Shown here piece by piece: positions 12,431 through 58,279 of a stretch of 64,000 nt of DNA; the stretch's first letter is position 1, and each line of letters opens with the position of its first letter. The stretch lies in the NCBI RefSeq assembly GCF_021028975.2, contig NC_059429.1:62558001-62622000 (forward strand). The letters are read 5' to 3'. Under the pieces are notes generated by a model. It searched no databases. It worked only from the letters and a program-made list of their open reading frames with translations, and was not told the DNA's origin. A program made the position numbers and the translations under genes. Origin of the DNA: Sphaerodactylus townsendi (lineage: Eukaryota).

Positions 12431-14810
12431 AACATAAGAACATAAGAACATAAGAACAAGCCAGCTGGATCAGACCAGAGTCCATCTAGTCCAGCTCTCT
12501 GCTACTCGCAGTGGCCCACCAGATGCCATTGGGAGCTCACATGCAGGATGTGAAAGCAATGGCCTTCTGTGGCTGTTGCTCCCGAGCACCTGGACTATTA
12601 AGGCATTTGCAACCTCAGATCAAAGAGAATCAAGATTGGTAGCTGCAGCCTCTCCTCATAAGGAAGGTGCTGGGGTCCCTCAATCATCCTTGTTGCCCTT
12701 CTCTGCACTTTTTCTATCTCTTCAATATCCTTTTTGAGATGTGGCAACCAGAACTGAACACAGTACTCCAAGTGCCGTCGCACCACTGCTTTATATAAGG
12801 GCATGACAATCTTTGCAGTTTTATTCTCAATTCCTTTCCTAATTATCCCCAGCATAGAGTTTGCCTTTTTCACAGCTGCCATGCATTGAGTTGACATTCC
12901 CATGGAACTATCAACTAAGATGCCCAAATCCCTTTCCTGGTCTGTGACTCACAGCACTGACCCCTTGTAGCGCAGTATGTGAAGTTTGGATTTTTGCCCC
13001 TATGTGCATCACTTTACATTTTGCTACATTGAACTGTGCATTTGCCATTTCTTAGCCTCCCACTCACCTAATCTCCTCTATCAAGGTCCGCTTTGGAGCT
13101 CTCAGAATCCTCATGGTTCTCGTAATTCACACTACCTTTAATTTGGTATCATCTGCAACTTTGGCACACCACATCTACCCACCCCTACTTCCAGGTCATT
13201 TATGAATAGGTTAAAGAGCACTGGTCCCAAAACAGATCCTTGGGGGACACCACTCCTTACATCTCTCCATTGTGAGAATTTCCCATTTACACCCACTCTT
13301 TGCTTCCTGTTTCTCAACCAGTTTTTAATCCATAGGAGGACTTCCCCTCTTATTCCTTGATTGCTGAGTTTTCTCAATAGTCTCTGGTGAGGAACTGGTG
13401 AGGAACATACCTGCGGGACCGCATCACCCCTTATGTCCCACATAGGTCGCTGCGCTCGGCAGCGGCTGATTTGCTGGTGACCCCTGGTCCCGCGATGATA
13501 CGGCTGGCCTCGACCCGGGCCAGAGCCTTTACGGCTCTGGCCCCTGCCTGGTGGAATGCCCTACCTCCAGCTGTCCGGGTGAGTTCCGCAGGGCCTGCAA
13601 GACGGAGTTATTCCACCGGGCCTTCGGAGAGGCCAGCCGTGGATTTACTGCCCCCCCAATCGGGAACTGCAATCAAATCGGAACTGAGGCTGCCAAGCTT
13701 CCATCTTATTATGGCTGGGCCTGATTTATTTATGGATTCCATCACAGGCCCTGCCTACTCCCTCCCTTCTTTTTGGCCTTCGATCGGGCGCCTGTTTTAA
13801 ACAACTCTGTTTTATAAATCTGGTTGTTTAATTTATAGCTTTTATTGTTGCAAACTGCTGCTTAGGTTTTAATGGTTTTAATGTTTTATGTTGTTGATTT
13901 GCTGTTCGATTGAACAGCCATATTGTGAGCCGCCTTAAGCCCCTCGGGGATAAGGCAGCCTATAAGTTTAACAAAAAAAAAAAAACTTTGTCAAAAGCCT
14001 TTTGGAAATCCAAGTAGACAATGTCCACTGGTTCCCCCTTATCCACATCCCTTTTTACACCCTCAAAGAACTCTAGTAAGTTTGTAAGACAGGATTTGCC
14101 TCTGCAAAAGCCATGCTGACTCTTTCTCAGCAGGTCTTGCTTTTCTATATGTTTTATAATTTTATCTTTAATGATAGATTCTACTAATTTACCAGGAACA
14201 GATGTCAAACTGACTGGCCTGTAATTTCCCGGGTCCCCCCCAGATCCTTTCTTAAAGATTGGTGTGACATTGGCCATCTTCCAGTCTTCAGGGATGGAGG
14301 CAGATTTCAGGAATAAATTGCATATTAAAGTGAGAAGATCAGCAACTTCATACTTGAGCTCTTTAAGAACTCTTGGGTGAATGCAGTTTATCAATGGCTG
14401 CCAGAACTTCTTCCTTGTCTACCACTATCTTCGCTAGTTCCTCGGATTCGCCTCCTAAGAAGCTTGGTTCAGGTGCAGGAATTGTCTTCACCTCCTCTTG
14501 GGTGAAGACAGATGCAAATAATTCATTCAGCTTCTCTGCAATCTCCCTGTCATCTTTTAGCACACCCTTTGTTCCTTTGTCATCTAACGGGCCTACCGCT
14601 TCCCTTGCTGGCTTCCTGCTTTTGACGTACTTGAAGAACTGTTTGTTGCTGGTCTTGATGTTCGCAGCCATGCGTTCCTCATAATCCTTTTTTGCCTCCC
14701 TTACAGCTAACTTGCTTCTCTTTTGCCACCATTTGTGTTCCCTCTCATATTCTTCATCAGTCAAACTGGACTTCCATTTTTTAAAATACATTTTCTTTTT
14801 TTATAATTTC
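12431..14810 (-). mobile_element. CR1 LINE (ORF2 RT region to 3' tail), internally deleted and interrupted by an L2-like insertion
   Basis: ORF pieces read IHPRVLKEL, NYRPVSLTSVPGK, QHGFCRGKSCLTNLLEF, YLDFQKAFDKV|[27 protein letters not shown] and HLEYCVQFW. (TTCTTATG)n tail at 12431-12457. Confidence 0.95.
13407..13985 (+). mobile_element. L2-clade LINE 3' fragment nested in CR1
   Basis: [18 protein letters not shown]...[17 protein letters not shown], a 3' UTR ending gtgagccgcctt... and a poly(A). It splits the CR1 sequence DKV|PHQ. Confidence 0.85.
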
Positions 14811-16124: not shown

Positions 16125-16938
16125 CTGAGCCACTCACAATGCCATGCTTGCCCCACACCAAGGCAGTTTTTTCAAGGCCAAATTGTACCGTTGTTAGCAT
16201 GGGGAATATCCCAGTGCAGCCTGGAATTCTTCACAGTCCTTGAAGCTGCATTGGGTCTGCCCCTGAGTTGCACCGCCATTTCCCCTTTTCCCAGCAGCTT
16301 TTAAAAACTGCCAAATTGGAGGTTCTTTTGAAATGCCTCTGCTTGCCTCTGAATGCTTCCGCTGTCATGAAAACACCACAGCAGCAGAACCGGGCCATTT
16401 TCCCGCCTTGCCGCTCTGGCCTGCCCCACCAATCACTTTTCTGACTGAAATTCTTGTGTGAGAGAGAAAATTGGCGCTCTGACGTTGCTGGCACCAACAC
16501 ACCCAATTTTTCTGACAGAGATCCTTGTGTGTGAGAGAGAATTGGTGCTCTGCCATTCCCAGCGCATTCACACCCCACTTTTCTGACAGAAATCCTTGTG
16601 TGAGAGAGAATCGGCACCCTGCCATTCCCGGTGCCTCTGCACCCTTTTCTGTCTAAGATCCACGATTTGTCCTTCTGGTTTTTTTTTCCACAGTGAAAGT
16701 GAGTGGGGAAATGCAGGGAGAATCAGCCAATCAGAATGTGGGAAACGGAAGAGCTCATGGTGCAAATGGGAAAGCCCTGGGCTTGCGCAAAAACAGCTGG
16801 GGCAAAACGTACCAGTCCTGCCTCGACTCCTGGGAAGAATCAGGGAGCCATGCAGAATCAAAAACAGGGGGAAAGAGCCCTGTGGCATGTAAAATCTAGG
16901 ATCTACCACAGAGCAATTTGGTCATGAAAAAATGGCCC
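16125..16938. mobile_element. Probable non-autonomous DNA transposon (Harbinger-like end) with an internal ~65-70-bp tandem repeat
   Basis: About 3.5 copies of ttttctgacagaaatccttgtgtgagagagaat..gc.ctgcc at 16434-16655. Right end is catgaaaaaatggccc. The left boundary is uncertain. Confidence 0.4.
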
Positions 16939-18832: not shown

Positions 18833-20422
18833 AACAGCTAAAGGGAGGAGGGGGATTAAACGCAGAAAGTGATTTACAGATTCGATTAGAAAAAGACAAC
18901 TACAGGAAGCTGCTGCAAAATATGCGAAAAATAACCCAGAAATTCACAGACAGGCTGTGATGAGGTATGCTGAATGTCACCCCGAAGTTCTTAGAGAGGC
19001 TGTGAAAAAGTATTCCTCTAATAACCCTCATGTTAACCAGACTGCTACAGCCAAATACAATTTAAAAAGATTACAAATCAAATTATCACCTTGGACTAAA
19101 AAATATTTGTCGGGTTTTGAATATGGATCTCACATTGATTACTGTGGAGACAAGGTGACTGATCTCGGACTTCGATTGCCCAGTGCTTGGTGTCATGCTC
19201 TGAAGTGGCGGGATGAGCCCCCAGGAATGTGCTGCAGTAGCGGTAAAGTTCAGCTCCCTGCCATTCAACCCTACCTTGAACCTCTTCACAGCCTTCTCAC
19301 GCATCAGCATCCAATGGCAGAACACTTTCTTTTGATTCCTGGAAATACAATGGATGCTTCCAAATGACATATTTTGGAACCCGAGAGGTGAAAGAGAGCA
19401 ATTTCATGCCAACATTCAAAGTGCAGGGATAGGTCTACCACAGGATAGGAAGCCTCATGACGGGACCTCAGCAGCAGCCGTCATTTCTTCAGATATACTT
19501 TGTTGGGGGTGATAACAATGAGAGGGACATTCAGAGTGCTCCAGAGTTAGTTCACCTGACAGCTTAGTCGTTGTTCTTCAGCCAGGAGGAAAAAACCAAG
19601 AATATTGTTTACAGGGAAGTTTTGAGCGTACTTAATCTAGGGGAGAAATGAAAACTGTATGCTTAACCAGAGTTATTAAGTATGAAAGTATATGTAGACT
19701 ACCGAAGCTAGGAGTAGTGATTACAGTAGTACCTCGGTTTTCATTATGAAATGGTAAAATTCGTCCGAAAGAGAATGGCTGAAAACCGAGAATCCTTGAA
19801 ACCAAAGGTACCACTGTATTTGCAAATTTTAATGTTTAATCTTGTATTAGAGCCTCATCCTGTTGTAAATGGATTAATGGTGTTTACATAGATTCATTAC
19901 ATTTTAGAAACTTTCCACGGTATTTTTATCAGGTAATTTTAATATTTTCACTATGTTTTTGTATTCTCAGTGTTTTTAAAGGATCTTTTATTTTATGAGG
20001 TCCTTAAATTTACAACCTTTAAAGGGTATTTTCCATAATAAAATGCGTTCCGATATTTTTCCAGTATTTTTCCAGTATGTATATTTTTATGAATTCATGC
20101 CATTTCAAACTTCAAGGGTAATTTTATCAGGTACGTTTCATATTTTTAGTATTTTTCTGTTGTTTGGGTTTTTTTGCCATGCAAGGGAAGGGAAGTGAGT
20201 GAGGATTTGGCATGCAAGGGGAGAGAGGGAGGAGGAAGGGTGGCATCTGGACATATTACACCCACACACACCTAAGCTGGAGGGAGGGGAAGGGGAAGGA
20301 GTGAGGGGTGTCATGCAAGGGAAGGGGAGGGGAGGGAGGGAGGGCTGGCATGCAAGGGAGGGGAGGGAAGAGGAGGAGGCCTTTTTTATAATCTCCATAG
20401 CGAAGCTCGGGTATCCTGCTAG
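18833..20422 (+). mobile_element. Internally deleted Helitron (RepHel pseudogene)
   Basis: The N-terminal motifs WCHALKWRDEPPGMCCSSGKVQL and (frameshifted) KYNGCFQMTYFG...FMPTFKVQG*VYHRIGSL...FLQIYF are fused at about 19536 to the helicase end CSRVSS...TKNIVYREVL. The 3' end is GCGAAGCTCGGGTATCCTGCTAG|T. Confidence 0.9.
19724..19816. mobile_element. Tigger/pogo-like MITE inside the Helitron
   Basis: TA|CAGTAGTACCTCGGTTTTC...GAAACCAAAGGTACCACTG|TA. Confidence 0.8.
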
Positions 20423-39559: not shown

Positions 39560-40687
39560 CAGAGGTGGGATTCAGCCAGTTCGCAACGGTTCAATGGAAC
39601 CACTTGTTAAATTTTCTTCAGTTCAGCAAACCGGTTGTTAAAGATTAACTTCAACTTCTTTGATGAATTTTCCTCAGTTCTGCAAACTGCTGGTTAATGA
39701 TTAACTTCAACTTCAACTGACTCGGCATATCTGTTAATGATTAATCCCCCCCTCCGATGGGAGTTAGTGGTGCGAGGCTCTCTTTTAAAAAGTATCTAAT
39801 GAAATCCCTTGGAGGAGGGGCATACAAAGCCTCAGTTAGAGAGGAGTGGATAAGTGGCAGGAACACCAGGAGATAATTGAGCTGGTTCCTCCTGGCTATT
39901 AAAGTAAGTAACTGCGTTTTGTTAAACTTTCTACCCTGGTGCCATGGGGTTGGGGAGGGGAGAGTTTGCCCAGTGCTTGCTTTCTGCTGGCAAAACTTTC
40001 TACCCTGGTGCCATGGGGAGGGCAGAGTTTGCCCAGTGCTTGGTTTCTGTTGGCAAATCTTTCTACCTTGGTGCCATGGGGATGGGGAGGGCAGAGTTTT
40101 CCCAATGCTTGGTTTCTGCTGGCAAAAATTTCTACCCTGGTGCCATAGGGATGGCGAGGGCAGAGTTTTCCCAATGCTTGGTTTCTGCTGGCAAAAATTT
40201 CTACCCTGGTACCATCGGGATGGGGAGGACAGAGTTTGCCCAGTGCTTGGGTTTTATTGGCAAAACTTTCTATCCTGGTGGCATGGGGATGGGGAGGGGA
40301 GAGTTTGCCCAGTGCTTGGTTTCTGCTGGCAAAAGTTTCTATCCTGGTGCCATGGCGATGGGGAGAGGAGAGTTTGCCCAGTTCTTGGTTTCTGTTGGCA
40401 CATCTTTCTACCCTGGTGGCATGGGGATGGGGAGGGGAGAATTTGCCCAGTGCTTGGTTCCATTTTGCAAAACTGTCTACCCAGGTGGCATCGGGGCAGA
40501 GTGGGGAGATTCTGCCCAGTGCCCCTGCTGCAGTACCGCCCACCCTGCTCTGGAAATCCCTGCACCCAGAACGCCCAGACCATGCCCCCGCCATGTTGTG
40601 CCCCACCCTGCTCCGTTGGCACTACACGACTGTTTGAATCCCACCACTATCGGAACCTGTTGTTAAAATTTTTGAATCCCACCACTG
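39560..40687. mobile_element. Non-autonomous hAT element carrying a 69-bp minisatellite
   Basis: TIRs CAGAGGTGGGATTCA / TGAATCCCACCACTG and a perfect 8-bp TSD AGCAAACC (39552-39559, 40688-40695). Confidence 0.9.
39928..40522. repeat. 69-bp minisatellite, about 8.7 copies
   Basis: The CTACCCTGGT anchor (with minor variants) occurs at 39931, 40000, 40063, 40132, 40201, 40270, 40339, 40408 and 40477. Confidence 0.97.
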
Positions 40688-43465: not shown

Positions 43466-44640
43466 CAGGGGTAGGGAACCTGCGGCTCTCCAGATGTTCA
43501 GGAACTACAATTCCCATCAGCCCCTACCAGCATGGCCAATTGGCCATGCTGACAGAGGCTGATGGGAATTGTAGTTCCTGAATACTCTGGGGCTGGGAGG
43601 TCCCTACTCCCCTGCCCCAGCCCAAAGGTTGCCTGAACTCATGCTCAAGCAGCCGCAAGAACGCTCTTTCCGCTTGTGGTGCTGCCTCCTGGCATGGCCC
43701 CTTCCTCCTCTCTGGCTTCCACAGCAATTCTCTCTCCTCTCTTCTTGTCTCTCTCCTCCTCTCCTAGTCACCTCTGCCTCTCCTTCCACCCTCCACTTCT
43801 TCCTTCTCCTCGAGCCTTCGCTCACCACCCTCGGCTTCAAATCCTGTCCCAGTGCTCAAGCCCCTCGGTCCTGCACGTTCCTACCCCTGCCCTAGGCCGT
43901 AGGCTGGGTCGCTCGGGTTGGGGCCAGACCGAGGATTCGCCAGGTGGCCTGCCCCACAGCCGCCCATTGTCCCTCAGGCTGCTGGGGCACATTGCTCAGC
44001 CACAAGCAGTCAGCTGTGGGGGCACGGCCTGCTGCTGGGGCTTGGGCACGCATTACGCTTGCCAGTGCTCCGCCTGGCCAAGTTCGTGAGTGATTCACCC
44101 CTGACACTTATGCGCTCCCGCGATGAACGTGGGAGCTGCGGCAGCCAGCATCCCAGCCTGAGCCGGGCGCTGCTTTTTCTCCCTCCCCTCAGGGTAGAAC
44201 TTGAGAAAAAAAAGCAGCTCCGCCCAGCTGCCTGGGATGCTGGCTGGTACGCGCGGCATAAGTATGTCCGGGTTGCCCGGAGGCTCCTCCCCAGACTCTT
44301 GGACGGGCGTGGTGCAAGGCACCGGGTAGCTGCACGCCCAGCAGCGTGCAGGTCTCGGGTCAGGCCACGAGCCCCTTCGCAGCCCCGGCAGCGGCGGCAA
44401 TGTGCCCAGACCCGGCCTGAGGGACAACGGGCCGAGCGCTGCGGGGGCAGGCCGCCGAGCGACTCACGGCGGCAACACCTCTCCCCAGCCCAGCCTCGTT
44501 GCAGGACGAGGGGAGAAACGCCCTAGAAGGCACTGGGGCAGGATTTAAGGCGGTGGGGCGGCCGAACGAGGCTCCGAGGAGAAGGAAGAAGCTGGGGAAA
44601 GTGGAGGGTGGAAAGGAGAGCTGATGTGACTAGGAGAGAG

Positions 44641-44685
<45 letters not shown>

Positions 44686-45068
44686 AGAGAGGGATAGATC
44701 TGTGGAAAAGCCCCAGAGAGGGGAGGAACAGCAGGGAAGGGGGTTGAATGTAGTAGAGAAGGGGGGGAAGCTGAAAAGATAACTGAAAGCTGGGTAGAAA
44801 TATTAGAGACAGAACAAGGGGGAAAGGAGGAAACAGAATGGGAAAAGGTCACAATCAGAGGGGTTGAAGCGGACCCTGACGAGAGGGGAGAAGTTGAGGA
44901 AAGAGGAGAGTTGCCCTTTGTACAAAGCGTGCGTAAAGGTAAAAAACCAAAATACTCAGTGTTTTCTTCATTTTAAATGCCAAAAAGTATTTGCGGCTCC
45001 ATGAGTTTTCTTTTCCATGGAAAATGGGTCCAAATGGCTCTTTGAGTGTTAAAGGTTCCCTACCCCTG
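43466..45068. mobile_element. Composite GC-rich hAT element, 1.6 kb
   Basis: TIRs CAGGGGTAGGGAACC / GGTTCCCTACCCCTG and a perfect TSD CCCTAGCC. Its ends are the reverse complements of the ends of the 32084 MITE. Internal (GA)n at about 44643-44690. Confidence 0.9.
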
Positions 45069-49500: not shown

Positions 49501-51046
49501 CTGAAGTTCAATTATACTACCTATTTTTATGCTAGATAAAAAGTAACACACAGTTGTACTTACTCATAAATGATGCTCACAGAGTGGTCATCTTTGGGAA
49601 CTTCACATGTTTAAGCCTGCAGCTAAACTTTCTAAACCTATCCCTTTCCCAGCAAGACGAAAGAGCAGGAGAATACCTCCCTCAGTTCCCCAAAGTCATT
49701 ACTAGAGAGCAGAAAAAACAGAGTACTAGGAAGCTCACAGAAGGGTCAAAAGAAGGGATGGGTGATTGCACAGATAACCACTTAATAGATATCAGTTGCA
49801 GGTAATTGCAACCATGTCTCCAGCATCAAGGTCACTGTGCCCATATGTAAAATAGTGAGCTAATATATGCAGGTAGTGGGCAAGCAGCTTTCAGTTGAAG
49901 AGACTCTGCAAAACTACTTTTCCAGCATGTTCTTCTTCCACGATATCAACATCCATTGAATAGTAGATGCTGAAAGTAGAGGAAGAGGGTCAAACTGCTG
50001 CTCTTCAGATCACTCCAGTGGAGAAACCACACTGGAGAACTGTAGAGCTCCAGTAGAATGAACAGGAAGCTGAAGGGGACCACTGACCCACAACTCCTCA
50101 TAGCAAAGTTTAATCAAAGACACTATGAGAGATGGACTGTGGGGTACCCTGAAATGTTCTTTAAAACTTCCATAAAAAATAAAAAGATGCTCATCTTTTC
50201 TTAAATATTTTATTCTGTTAAAATACAAAACTGAGTGGTCAAAGAATATCAACAGACTGCAATGAGCACTCATGTTCGTCTTTTGAGTTTGGAAACAGAT
50301 GAGGATTATGTCCTGATTAAGATAGCAAGATGAGACCAAATTGTGGCAAGGTCATAGAACCACCCTAGTATTGTGGATTTTCAGATCATTGCCTTAGGAC
50401 TGACAACTCACTAACCCTCCAAGCTGATTGCATTGTTATTAGAAAAACAGTTTTAAACATTAGAAAATAGGGAGAGCAGTTAGCCTAGAGATCAAAAGGA
50501 TTCAGAAAGCAGCTCCTGGGGAAGCTGGATCCTTAGCCCCAAAAGAACAGAAAGATAGGGTGAACTGCATACTCACAAGATCCCACTGGGACCTGAAGGG
50601 AGTCTGCTTTCAGGTTCTGGCAACCTGGAATGTGAACTGCCTGGATGGTGGAGTTATTTCTGACTCTCCACTTCTCAATTAACACAGCTTTTCAACCAAA
50701 GAACAAAGAGGCCGGGCTCCCTTGCTTGTTCAGTTAGAACATAATTTCATAAGGGGACCTCTATCACTTTCCAGATTACTACAAAGGCAACATACCATGC
50801 ATAAATATAAATACCTGACAATTGTTAAAAATATGTCAAGATGTGCATCACAAATCACAGTATGTGTTATAAAAAGCAAAACACATTTTGGCAAAAGAGA
50901 TCCTGTGCACCACATATTTTTAAGAAGTGGAAAATATTGTTGCAAAAACACAACCATATAAAGATACCACGTCTGTATAAATGCTTCTGATCAAATATAA
51001 TAAACATCTCATGAATCACTAATTACTGCATCATCATAACATATAA

Positions 51047-52660
51047 GGCACTAAGGCAAGCCAGAGCCCATACCCTTACCTTAACCCTAACCCTAACCTA
51101 TTTTTTAAATTATAGGTTAGGGTTAGGGTTCAGGCAAAGGCAGGGTCTCAGACTTGTCTTAGTTTTACTTAGAGTTCTAGGGCGCAGTCCAAGAATAGAG
51201 CTATGGTCAGTTTCAGGTTTTGGGGGGTTGCCTTAACCCTTTCACTTACCTGAACCCTAACTTTTTATTTTTATTTAATTTATTCAGCCATAAATTGTTC
51301 CCAAAATTGTAACAAAAACCCGAAACCTAAAACTGACCATAGCCCTATTCTCAGACTGTGCCCTAGAACTCACCGTAACCCTAAGGGAAGCCTGAGCCCC
51401 TGCCCTTGCCTTTACCCTAACCCTAACTTTTTTAAAAAAATTATTCCGTCATAAATTATTCCCAAAATTTTAACAAAAGGCCAATACCTAAAACTGACTG
51501 TAGCCCTATTCTCGGACTGCGCCCTAGAACTCAACGTAACACTAAGGCAAGACTGAGCCACTTCCCTTGCCTTAACCCTAACCCTAATTTAATATTTCGA
51601 TTTAATTTATTCAGTCATAAATTGTTTCTAAAATTGTAACAAAACTTCAAAACCTAAAAGTGAAGATAGCCCTATTCTCGGACTGCGCCCTAGAACTCCA
51701 CATAACACTAAGACAAGCCTGAGCCCCTGCCCTTGCCCTAACTCTAACCCTAATTTATTATTTCTATTTAATTTATTAAATTGTAATAAAACTCGGACTG
51801 CGCCCTAGAACTCCACATAACACTGAAAAGCCTGAGCCCCTGCCCTTGCCTTAACCCTAACCCTAATTGATTATTTTTATTTAATTTATTGAGTCATAAA
51901 TTGTTGCCAAGATTGTAACAAAAACCCGAAACCTAAAACTGACCATAGCCCTATTTTGGACTGCACTCTAGGACTCACCGTAACACTAAAGCAAGCCTGA
52001 GCCCCTGCCCTTGCCTTAACCTTAACCCTAATTCATTATTTTTATTTAATTTATTCAGTCATAAATTGTTCCTAAATTGTAACAAAAACCAAAACCTGAA
52101 ACTGACCATAGCCCTATTCTCGGACTGCACCCTAGAACTCTACATAACACTAAGGGATGCCTGAGCCCCTTCTCTTGCCTTAACCCTAACCCTAACTTAT
52201 TATTTTAATTTAATTTATTCAGTCACAAATTGTTCCCAAAATTGTAATCGAAACCGAAAACCTGAAACGGACCATAGCCCTATTTTGGACTGCGCTCTAG
52301 GACTCACCATAACACTAAAGCAAGCCTGAGCCCCTGCCCTTGCCTTAACCTTAACCCTAATTCATTATTTTAATTTAATTTATTCAGTCACAAATTGTTC
52401 TCAAAATTGTAATTGAAACCCAAAACCTGAAACGGACCATAGCCCTATTCTCGGACTGCGCCCTAGAACTCAACGTAACACTAAGGCAAGCCTTAGCCTC
52501 TGCCCTTGCCTTAACCCTAACCCTAACTTGTTATTTTAATTTAATTTATTCAGTCACAAATTGTCCCCAAAATTGTAACAAAAACCCGAAACCTACAACT
52601 GACCATAGCCCTATTCTCGGACTGCGCCCAAGAACACAACGTAACACTAAGGCAAGACAT
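51047..52660. repeat. ~165-bp satellite array containing telomeric (CCCTAA)2-3 motifs, about 9 units plus an inverted unit
   Basis: The CCCTAGAACTC-type anchor occurs at about 51361, 51522, 51688, 51803 (deleted unit), 51966, 52130, 52295, 52461 and 52627. An inverted unit lies at about 51113-51225. Confidence 0.95.
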
Positions 52661-52729
52661 ATGGGGTCCCCCCCGCCCGCAAAACTCAGATTTTTGTCCC
52701 AGGCTCTATTCTTCCTAGCTACACCTCTG
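52661..52729. mobile_element. hAT-like terminus bounding the satellite
   Basis: The reverse complement CAGAGGTGTAGCTAGGAAGAATAGAGCCTGGGACAAAA resembles the left end of the 29025 element, CAGAGGCGTATCTAGGTGAACTGAAGCCCAGGGACAAAA. Confidence 0.75.
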
Positions 52730-53124
52730 CCAATGCCCCACAGCCACACCCCTCTGCCAATGCCAATGCTTTTCCTCTCCTACACTTTCTAGAGTCCACT
52801 TTATTGTCTCTCAACATGAGCTTTTACTACTAGTTTTTTTTAAAAAAAACCCGTTGCATTTACATTTTCAGATGGCAATAAATCACATTTAATTATAGTG
52901 TTCTTCATGTTTCTTATAACTTTGGGATTGTACTGTGGTGAATTTGCAAAGAATTGCAGAGGTTACCTCTTTTTCCCCTGTAAACCCTCTCCACATTATT
53001 TCCTCTTTCTGTTTTCCTCACAGCCACCATATCATCACCTTTCCCTTCTTCCTACTCAGTTACCAAACAACCCACCTTTTATCTTCCTCCCCTCTCCATC
53101 TCCAGCTATATTTACAATGTACTG

Positions 53125-56300: not shown

Positions 56301-57432
56301 AAAGATTGAGGTGCTGTTAGTGAAAGACAAAACTGCTACCCTTGAAGAGTGTTCAGAAGCTGTGGCTGGTGCAGAACGCTGCAACTAGACTGCTGGTCAG
56401 GGCCAGCTATCAGGAGCATATGTCCCCCATATTATAACAATTGTACTGGTTGCCAATCCATTTCTGAGCCTAATTCAAGCTGCTGGCTTTGAAGCCCAAA
56501 TGACTTGGGACCAGAGTTTCTGGCCATTTTCTCCCAGATGTTCCTTCCCAGGAATTCAGATCACAAGAAAAGGCTCTCTTGACCTTCTGCATGCAAACAA
56601 ATATTCTATCACCGAGACCTCTGTCTTTGCTGGATTTAACTTCAGCCAGCTCCTTTTAACCATTCCACCAAAGCGTCCAAACAGCTTGCCAGTACAGCTG
56701 GGGTGTCATCTGCCTATTGGTGACAACCCAAGTCAAAATTCAGGATCAACCCAGCAAGAGGGTGCATGTAGATATTAAATAGTGTCAGTGAGAGAACTGC
56801 CTCATGATGGGATGCTACATACCAAAGAATGGTGAACCAAAGTTCTCTTACTGATTGCCACCCTGTCTCCATCCCTGGAAAAATGAGCACAGCCAATTGA
56901 CAGATCTCAGAACCAGCAAGATTAGGCAGATTAATGGAGGATAGGTCTACCAATGGCTATTAGTCATGACAGCTAAATGCTCCATGCTCAATACCAGTGT
57001 ATGCACAGTAACAGCTGATGGGGCTCAAATGAGTAGTAGAGTTATGCATAATTTGTAGACTTTCTAGAAATATGTGGGTGGTGTTTCTATTTCAAAACAT
57101 GACGCTGTATTAGATTAACTCAAGGTTTGATCCAATGTATGTAAGCCTTTCAGGCATGAAAGTATGACAGCCTATTGGGGTGGTTTTTGGCTAACTGGTA
57201 TAAACACTTATACTTAAATACGCCCCTAGCCTCTGAGATATAGTTTCAAGGCTTGTTCAAAACTTCCTACTCAACTTTCATGGAAACATGTACTTGACAA
57301 GACAGAAAGACATATCTACAGTAGTGAGGGAGAGAGAGAGAGATTTATGACTACAATGACACCCCCTTTCTAATATGACTACCTAAATATCACATAAAAC
57401 TAAGCATGCAACTTATTTTTATTTTATATAGT

Positions 57433-58279
57433 TGTCCGGGAGCGGGGGCAGCCCCCTCCCCCTCCCCGGACTTGCTCCCCAGCCCATGGCCGGCGGGCGC
57501 TTCTCCTGCAATGTGAGGCACCGCAACACGAGGGGAGGCCCGTCGCCACGTTGTCAAGGGACTAGAGCACCACACGGCACGAGGGGAGTCCCGTCGCCAT
57601 GAGACCGGAACGGCGCCTCGCTTTCTCCCCAGCAGGGGTAACGAGCAGAGGCCCAGGCTGCGGGGAGAGACACTTCGTTCCTTCGTCAGAGGAACGAAGC
57701 GCAGAAAGGTCCCATCGCCGCAGCAACAGGAGAGGGGCCGGGTCGGTCGAACAAGACCAGCTGAGCCCTGTTGGGTTGAGTATGGGAGACGGAAGGGAGC
57801 GTGGGAGCGGGGTTTTTAGCCCCAGAGATGGCTGGGGAGGAGATAAAAGGGGAAAAGCACAGGAAGGCTGGGGGAGAGAAGGAGGGAGAGCGTGTGGGAG
57901 GAAGGAGGAGGAAGAAAGGGCATGGAGAGACAGGGAAGAGGACGACAGTGGGGGAGTCTAAGTGGAGAAGAGGAGAGGACTGAAGGGGTGAAGGTCTTGG
58001 AGGAGAGACGGTGGACGGACGGAGGGGGCAGGAACTGAGAGGGGAGGAGAAGTCAACAGTCCAGAGGCTAGCAGGGGGGCTTCCCTACGCTCCCTCCCTA
58101 GCTTTCTGCAGACACTGGGCCAGCTGTGGGCAGCCAAAGCAAACTGTGGCTAAAGTGGCTGTCCCACTTAGTCCACTCCCTGGAGAATGGGAGTGAGGCC
58201 GGAGGTTCCAGCATCCGGGCAGGGGAAGGTGGGTTGGCAACAGGGGCCCTGACGGGAACCCCACCCAGGGCGCAGGACA
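57433..58279 (+). mobile_element. Young GC/CpG-rich solo LTR (847 bp)
   Basis: TGTCC...GGACA termini, a perfect 5-bp TSD ATAGT and a TATA-like GATAAAAG at about 57842. Orientation is tentative. Confidence 0.88.

What the first reader, a model, noticed from the sequence alone, without database searches (positions are those of the whole stretch)
51047..52764. Telomere-motif satellite with a fold-back start and a hAT transposon terminus
Seen: about nine ~165-bp units, each holding CCTTAACCCTAACCCTAA (vertebrate telomeric repeat, C-strand) followed by an AT tract. The array runs directly into a hAT-like TIR end at 52729. It begins with a head-to-head inversion that forms a telomeric hairpin (ACCCTAACCCTAACCTA...TAGGTTAGGGTTAGGGT, about 51083-51129). 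No left TIR or TSD was found. Inference: a non-autonomous DNA transposon is carrying an amplifying interstitial-telomere-like satellite of about chromatosome length. This could spread short TRF1/TRF2-type sites or seed satellite DNA. Telomere-like motifs inside vertebrate non-autonomous transposons are not unprecedented, so novelty is unproven.
Basis: partly seen in the sequence, partly recalled or inferred. Interest (0 to 1): 0.7.

Follow-up and report, generated by a model that had tools for sequence, protein, structure and literature searches.

The report
Transposon copying out its host satellite
This is one of an estimated few hundred scattered short runs of a 166-base repeat; a cut-and-paste jumping element once landed inside such a run and likely then carried variable pieces of it to new sites, and the telomere-like motif in the repeat is short, often decayed and shows no sign of selection.

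Summary
The array, the fold-back and the hAT end are real. The 166-bp unit forms an estimated 300-450 short interstitial arrays, each a unique path through the same two inherited inversion junctions. The end at 52729 belongs to a 1.3-kb non-autonomous hAT element (H) with TIRs and 8-bp TSDs. One 8-mer joins array to H's left TIR at 15 loci and H's right TIR to array at 17, never both: H once inserted into an array, and both junctions were later copied elsewhere. Ten of 11 two-ended composites have matching new TSDs (0 of 110 permuted pairs). This fits maize-type Composite Insertions (transposase launch, aborted copying, fusion). The window is a one-sided remnant: 73 bp of H, no partner TIR, no TSD. 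The 51107 fold-back is bridged by an independent contig and was seen at no other locus. Dfam/Repbase could not be searched; the scan's notes hold no look-alike.

The parts
51047..52729 (-). Whole insertion: one-sided H-satellite composite (left limit uncertain by a few bases); read on the minus strand it runs H left end, array, J2, fold-back, flank
   Evidence: flank contig of a related organism stops fitting at 51046
51049..51106 (+). Outer arm of the terminal fold-back (unit positions 1-58)
51107..51230 (-). Inverted unit segment (positions 58-1, then 166-101); its first 57 bases pair with the outer arm. The 58|58 turn was seen at no other locus; likely a repair scar or a deletion between two J1 junctions
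   Evidence: bridged by an independent contig
51215..51250 (.). J2, the family-wide head-to-head inversion junction (unit 101|12), turn at 51230/51231
   Evidence: 35 of 41 head-to-head junctions are of this type by my reading; 124 genome matches, control 0
51231..52656 (+). Forward array of about 8.6 units of 166 bp, 88-95% identical to the family consensus; one unit (51706-51820) has an internal deletion
51570..51587 (+). One of five exact copies of the telomere-like 18-mer (others start at 51079, 51849, 52178, 52509); about 2.5 hexamers each
52657..52729 (-). First 73 bp of the non-autonomous hAT element H, fused to unit position 12; a 3-bp microhomology is inferred if one later substitution is allowed
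52716..52729 (-). 14-bp left TIR of H
52730..52737 (+). 8-mer next to the TIR (one copy of the expected TSD); no partner at the far end of the array
   Evidence: longest suffix match 1 base
52714..52767 (+). Imperfect 27-bp tandem duplication covering the TIR tip and the 8-mer; likely a slip during insertion or repair
   Evidence: (D14)

Best explanation
A 166-bp dispersed satellite received one insertion of a 1.3-kb non-autonomous hAT element (H), and hAT transposase then likely launched H ends into new sites while they were still joined to the satellite, so that aborted copying and fusion would leave composite insertions of varying content. Shown: the element, its TIRs and TSDs, the single ancestral target 8-mer on both inner junctions, new TSDs outside the outer TIRs, one H lineage, unique joints and layouts. 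Inferred: copying starts at each outer TIR, runs through H into the satellite on its far side, switches between homologous units (changing strand only at the inherited junctions J1 and J2), stops and is fused to the other arm, as in maize Ac/fAc Composite Insertions; later excision of an inner complete H or deletion leaves one-sided remnants. The window is read as such a remnant: the left arm stopped after 73 bp of H, the other H end is gone, and the broken array end folded back at 51107. The two thirds of arrays without H come from the same pool at the same time, probably as break-repair insertions or doubly eroded composites; this step is the weakest. The telomere-like motif is a passenger.
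For: H: exact 8-bp TSDs in 5 and one-mismatch TSDs in 3 of 42 TIR starts examined. Array-to-left-TIR junction at 15 loci (10 of 12 fetched hits; plus L022, L028, L029, L205, L259); right-TIR-to-array junction at 17 of 17 hits; same 8-mer on both. The opposite H end has a different flank in 12 of 12 and 10 of 10 cases in view, so no locus has both junctions. Ten of 11 two-ended composites have TSDs matching at 6-8 of 8; 0 of 110 permuted pairs reach 6. Predicted arm types are seen: part H + array + whole H (L022, L029, L185, L188), whole H + array + part H (L234). A sister-lineage marker is in 0 of 41 array-linked H left ends and 5 of 15 array-free ones. One-sided copies keep 4 or more bases of the TSD at the far array end in 8 of 23 (5.7% permuted), 5 or more in 4 of 23 (1.2%). 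Ten of 17 arrays that start at the shared right-TIR junction share the first 100 bp and J2 and then all differ; J2 copies within a locus are as diverged (14.7%) as between loci (14.5-16.2%). Model: PMC4270019 (passages) and 10.1101/2020.08.10.245175 (passages).
Against: 38 of 58 complete arrays have no H within 60 bp, no TSD above chance and no H-family flank above background (3 of 76 ends against 5.4%). The donor (array-H-array, or two H copies with reversed ends) was not found. Whole H + array + whole H, which the model allows, was seen in none of the 32 junction loci. Many composites have part H on both sides (L198, L204, L208, L213, L220, L260), which needs secondary donors or extra switches. 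Maize CIs were described at linked sites, often with duplications or deletions, whereas these copies lie on all large contigs. In the window there is no TSD remnant and the 73-bp end scores best against array-free H copies with a G-run (that set was picked by likeness to the window), so its lineage is not settled. Some of the 8 TSD remnants may be chance matches to array letters (L250, L257, L261), and one row (L242) lay at the edge of its locus. Array-free and variable-joint H sets were picked with a lineage-specific pattern. No autonomous partner among the top 30 of 73 hAT transposase hits.
Confidence: 0.5

Rival explanations
1. Hybrid seeding: the H-satellite hybrid served as an ectopic or extrachromosomal repair template, and resident H copies took up array by homology-driven gap repair, as Rsp-like entered 1.688 clusters in Drosophila; H-free arrays are homology-free insertions from the same pool.
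For: One fixed junction plus one variable junction, with duplication or loss of target, is the pattern in PMC7403614 (passages) and here. Covers H-free arrays of equal age with intermixed J2 alleles (24 changes on the tree, at least 6 forced). TSD remnants mark transposase breaks. Gap filling is the usual source of single-copy Pack-TIRs (PMC8277862, passages).
Against: Close sister lineages of H should also be hit, yet 0 of 41 array-linked left ends carry the sister marker. Occupancy of 18 of 30 copies is very high for ectopic repair.
Confidence: 0.22
2. Fixed composite transposon: a tandem duplication gave H-array-H, which moved whole by cut-and-paste; nested excisions, aborted gap repair and recombination between the long direct repeats then eroded every copy, leaving H-free arrays when both H were lost.
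For: New TSDs outside outer TIRs; several one-sided copies end just at the inner target site with TSD letters behind it (L044, L235, L239, L251); array ends are enriched at that site.
Against: No intact H-array-H among 32 junction loci; layouts differ from the second junction on; H-free arrays show no TSD remnants.
Confidence: 0.15
3. The unit is a non-autonomous Penelope-like retroelement or retrozyme; tandem and inverted copies arise by reverse transcription with template jumps, and H is cargo.
For: Tandem and inverted arrangements and non-autonomous head-to-tail forms are typical of PLEs (PMC3846280, PMC8557442, passages); GIY-YIG retroelements exist in this genome; it would cover the H-free majority.
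Against: No hammerhead core on either strand, no Rfam family at threshold, unit does not fold better than shuffles (z 0.11), no match to 10 GIY-YIG loci, no fixed terminus, and cargo copying would give array-H-array, seen in none of the junction loci.
Confidence: 0.08
4. One reading: the arrays spread TRF1/TRF2 docking sites.
For: Each intact unit holds two overlapping telomeric half-sites (sequence; half-site definition recalled); human short interstitial sites start at 2 repeats and some bind TRF1/TRF2 (PMC6410037, passages).
Against: Motif less conserved than the rest of the unit (rank 109 of 144 windows), intact in 60 of 187 units; the same review says binding depends on length and conservation; arrays avoid chromosome ends.
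Confidence: 0.05

Closest known systems
Composite Insertions made by alternative transposition of maize Ac/fAc (hAT); PMC4270019 and 10.1101/2020.08.10.245175, passages read
   Same: Outer transposon ends with a new 8-bp TSD; each arm is transposon plus a variable length of donor flank; one variable internal fusion; an inner whole element can excise later.
   Different: Seen here as an old genome-wide record on many chromosomes, with a tandem and inverted satellite as the flank and much template switching; the reversed-ends donor was not found; most arrays lack H.
Rsp-like satellite entering 1.688 clusters in Drosophila simulans and mauritiana; PMC7403614, passages read
   Same: Short dispersed arrays; a hybrid junction shared between loci and a variable second junction, sometimes with target duplication.
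   Different: The partner here is a hAT element, the hybrid arose by transposition into the satellite, and new TSDs point to transposase.
Animal Pack-TIRs (gap filling, FoSTeST); PMC8277862, passages read
   Same: Foreign DNA between TIRs, capture from the neighbourhood, template switching, loss of one side in some copies.
   Different: Multicopy Pack-TIRs repeat one structure; here nearly every copy has its own joints and the inner junctions keep the old TSD.
Satellite-bearing non-autonomous elements: miDNA4 of Xenopus (PMC9659126, passages); oyster Helentron elements (PMC7492417, search listing only)
   Same: Short arrays of a nucleosome-sized unit dispersed with a DNA transposon.
   Different: There the repeat lies inside a fixed element; here the element landed in the repeat and no fixed flanking boxes exist.
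SINE-derived satellites of squamates; PMC10702118, passages read
   Same: Hundreds of short arrays of 115-150-bp units in lizards.
   Different: No A or B box motif and no tRNA in this unit; those tend to be subtelomeric, these avoid ends; sequences were not compared directly.

Membership tests
Non-autonomous hAT element (for H) | Short TIRs | tested here: met
   14-bp TIRs on complete copies such as L042, L200, L218
Non-autonomous hAT element (for H) | 8-bp TSD | tested here: met
   5 exact and 3 one-mismatch among 42 starts; 10 of 11 composites
Non-autonomous hAT element (for H) | Autonomous partner with the same ends | tested here: inconclusive
   None among the top 30 of 73 PF05699 hits, only 1.5 kb each side read
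Non-autonomous hAT element (for the window copy) | Both TIRs and TSD present | tested here: not met
   Only 73 bp of the left end; no TSD remnant
Ac-type Composite Insertion | Outer transposon ends flanked by a new TSD | tested here: met
Ac-type Composite Insertion | Arms carry donor flank from beyond the far end of the element | tested here: met
   Old target 8-mer on inner junctions at 15 and 17 loci
Ac-type Composite Insertion | Variable internal fusion point | tested here: met
   two joints recur (three and two loci)
Ac-type Composite Insertion | Donor with two nearby elements in reversed-end arrangement | tested here: inconclusive
   No locus with both junctions by coordinates; could be lost, unassembled or beyond pattern tolerance
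Ac-type Composite Insertion | Origin by re-replication in S phase, with reciprocal products | not testable with these tools
   Needs a live system
Ac-type Composite Insertion | Empty orthologous site without the element | tested here: inconclusive
Penelope-like element / non-LTR retrozyme | Hammerhead ribozyme in the unit | tested here: not met
   definition from 10.64898/2026.07.22.740005, part 1 of 5 read
Penelope-like element / non-LTR retrozyme | Likeness to the end of an autonomous PLE | tested here: inconclusive
   No match in 10 GIY-YIG loci of 3 kb; not a full census
Penelope-like element / non-LTR retrozyme | Tandem plus inverted copies | tested here: met
Helitron / Helentron non-autonomous element | Fixed termini or conserved boxes around the array (features recalled) | tested here: not met
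   90 array ends spread over the unit; no shared non-H flank boxes
Short interstitial telomeric sequence | At least 2 TTAGGG repeats at an internal site | tested here: met
   At the lower limit: 5 intact (TAACCC)2TAA in the window; range 2-25 in PMC6410037
Short interstitial telomeric sequence | Shelterin binding | not testable with these tools
   No binding data; no excess conservation

The most novel reading that the evidence does not exclude
The whole family, H-free arrays included, is the fossil record of replicative hAT transposition in a vertebrate germ line: one element sitting in a satellite fired repeatedly, each time copying out a freshly shuffled stretch of its neighbour, so that a mechanism known from a few maize alleles dispersed a satellite to hundreds of sites on all chromosomes.
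Probability: 0.3. Interest if true: 0.72.

Novelty: new variant of a known kind. Interest (0 to 1): 0.5.

Why it matters
How short satellite arrays reach hundreds of distant sites is usually argued from circumstantial signs. Here the old target duplication is a built-in tag of the donor, so direction (satellite first), carrier (hAT ends) and product types can be read from sequence and tested at orthologous sites. If the Composite Insertion reading holds, alternative transposition with aborted copying acted genome-wide in an animal; my search for the three terms together gave 8 papers, the 6 listed on maize or Arabidopsis by title and abstract start. The telomere angle adds little.

Tried and rejected
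Fixed MITE with an internal satellite: joints vary. One-ended transposition with a full TSD at the array end: best match within 2 mismatches in only 3 of 23. TSDs at H-free arrays: mean longest shared word 3.4 against 3.6 permuted; one good case (L061). Excision tag at H-free ends: the target variant is also a common internal unit allele (21 of 324 internal sites), so it proves little. Penelope or retrozyme: no ribozyme, no partner. Helitron-type end: array ends do not cluster at the CTAG of the unit. Donor-versus-resident mosaic in H: no diagnostic sites separate the array-linked classes. Rfam gave only sub-threshold microRNA-type hairpins (20 rows). No RNA holder listed; this is no evidence on expression. 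The dedupe wrongly dropped loci and was redone by coordinates (7 of 30 J2 loci dropped as repeats). Two of 12 fetched hits (L189, L190) had no array and were left out. Scan notes by sequence: none.

Full report
What is in the window. Tandem units of 165-166 bp fill 51049-52656. From the left: unit positions 1-58 forward, the same positions inverted (arms 46 of 57 alike; z -7.5), the inverted strand continuing to 51230, a second turn, about 8.6 forward units, then 73 bp ending in a TIR at 52729. The quoted 18-mer is exact in 5 of 11 positions and never reaches three whole hexamers. A contig from another study spans the fold-back centre with one difference, so it is no assembly artefact. In a more distant organism one contig spans 51049-51196 at about single-copy depth while the flank contig stops fitting at 51046 with 96 letters left; this may mean the insertion is shared with extra DNA at its edge, or absent.

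The unit family. The genome is a 1.81-Gb vertebrate one; earlier scan notes call it gecko-like, which I did not test. The unit matched 364 times among 40 scored candidates, on 15 of the 16 largest contigs seen. An exact 24-mer occurs 355 times, which scales to about 3,200 units and, by my estimate, 300-450 loci. None was found in 200 kb of arbitrarily placed background. Complete arrays have a median of 1.1 kb, range 0.3-7.0 kb (58 of 62 loci). None of 54 loci on the three largest contigs lies within 15 Mb of an end, against 8.6 expected. Strand changes occur almost only at two junctions: J1 in 39 of 48 tail-to-tail and J2 in 35 of 41 head-to-head turns, by my reading; J2 has 124 genome matches. 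Both carry linked variant letters, so each arose once and was inherited. The window's turn at 51230 is J2; its turn at 51107 is private. The telomere-like 15-mer is 12.5% diverged against 9.6% for other non-CpG sites in 187 units picked without regard to it.

The hAT element. The terminus has 779 first-look candidates, 40 scored, and matches mostly stop at the TIR. Complete copies have 14-bp TIRs and 8-bp TSDs; L042 (1,332 bp) served as reference H. H touches 20 of 58 complete arrays (two of the 20, L009 and L181, are doubtful short pieces), 29 of 116 ends against 5.4% background, and 18 of 30 copies of one H lineage have an array within 1.5 kb.

Order of events. The 8-mer GTTAAYGC joins array to H's left TIR at 15 loci and H's right TIR to array at 17 of 17 hits. 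It is a common allele of the unit. It is therefore the TSD of one insertion of H into an array. Plain excision of H would leave these junctions behind, yet they were copied to many chromosomes. No locus holds both; wherever the other end of H was in view (12 and 10 cases) it had its own flank. Ten of 11 two-ended composites have matching TSDs outside the outer TIRs, 0 of 110 permuted pairs. All 41 array-linked H left ends lack a marker found in 5 of 15 array-free ones (part of these sets was picked by a lineage pattern). Arrays that begin at the shared right-TIR junction agree for about 100 bp in 10 of 17 cases and then each differs. J2 copies inside one locus are as diverged as copies from different loci, H-linked (9.3%) and H-free (8.0%) copies are of like age, and they interleave on a poorly resolved tree of 106 rows: layouts were made at about the time of insertion.

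Mechanism. Maize Ac/fAc Composite Insertions have just this build: transposon termini with a new 8-bp TSD, each followed by re-copied element and donor flank of variable length, fused by end joining or homologous recombination, with later excision of the inner element in some (PMC4270019, passages; 10.1101/2020.08.10.245175, passages). The arm types it predicts are present (L022, L029, L185, L188; L234). One-sided copies keep the tail of the TSD at the far array end more often than chance (8 of 23 against 5.7%), as expected after loss of an inner H; the window copy does not. I infer that the window is such a one-sided remnant with a snap-back at the broken end; the 27-bp duplication across its TIR tip fits a repair slip. 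Confidence 0.5.

What does not fit. 38 of 58 arrays have no H, no TSD and no H-family flank above background; the donor and the whole-H, array, whole-H product were not found; several composites have partial H on both sides; maize CIs were studied at linked sites; the window's 73 bp cannot be assigned to the lineage; no autonomous partner was found in 30 of 73 transposase hits. Hybrid seeding as for Rsp-like and 1.688 (PMC7403614, passages) or gap filling (PMC8277862, passages) is the main rival (0.22), a fixed composite eroded afterwards the next (0.15). A Penelope-type origin lacks ribozyme, fold and partner.

Novelty. Satellites spread with DNA transposons are known (PMC9659126, passages; PMC7492417, listing only). 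I found no description of this family or of Composite Insertions dispersing a satellite in an animal, but text searches cannot match sequences, Dfam and Repbase were out of reach, and no supplements were read; consensus sequences in the supplements of PMC10702118 could bear on identity. The scan's notes hold no look-alike. Helitron terminal features and the TRF half-site definition are recalled, not from a call. Verdict: new variant of a known kind, interest 0.5.

Noticed in passing
window 18873-19800 (+): Decayed, frameshifted reading frame whose motifs resemble a Helitron Rep/helicase N-terminal part (motifs recalled); the one open piece tested had no Pfam hit.
   Followed up: partly
window 39924-40522: 69-bp tandem repeat, 8.8 copies, 85% matches, open in several frames.
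   Followed up: no
window 16434-16636: 71-bp tandem repeat, 2.9 copies.
   Followed up: no
window 13141-14800 (-): Fragments of a LINE-type reverse transcriptase (PF00078, E 3.5e-9).
   Followed up: partly
window 43600-45000 and 57400-57800: GC-rich stretches with open frames, possibly CpG islands or exons; no Pfam hit for 43903-44523.
   Followed up: no
L062, L064, L067, L076, L084, L015, L045, L193, L259: Variant units in which positions 46-97 are replaced by an expanding, partly palindromic 11-bp minisatellite; present in H-linked and H-free arrays.
   Followed up: partly
L010, L015, L030, L044, L073, L166, L169: About nine independent insertions of other hAT-type MITEs at two or three favoured sites of the unit; background 16 such starts per 200 kb with a different pattern, so enrichment is not shown.
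   Followed up: partly
H left end, positions 50-62 (L032-L060, L196-L225, window 52665-52680): A C-run and a G-run alternate between copies in more than one subfamily, like a recurrent micro-inversion.
   Followed up: no
L114:1-4400 (G000 C6): Higher-order tandem of about 600 bp made of unit, minisatellite and about 120 bp of captured unrelated sequence, with extra telomere-like hexamers.
   Followed up: no
G000 C1-C3: Arrays avoid the outer 15 Mb of the three largest contigs (0 of 54 against 8.6 expected); cause unknown.
   Followed up: partly
L133-L139: A family of Penelope-like elements with RT and GIY-YIG remnants; a loose hammerhead-core pattern lies downstream in four of them.
   Followed up: no
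L233, L236, L255: Composites in which the second H piece is inverted, giving two left ends facing outwards in L255; possible sister-chromatid type events.
   Followed up: no
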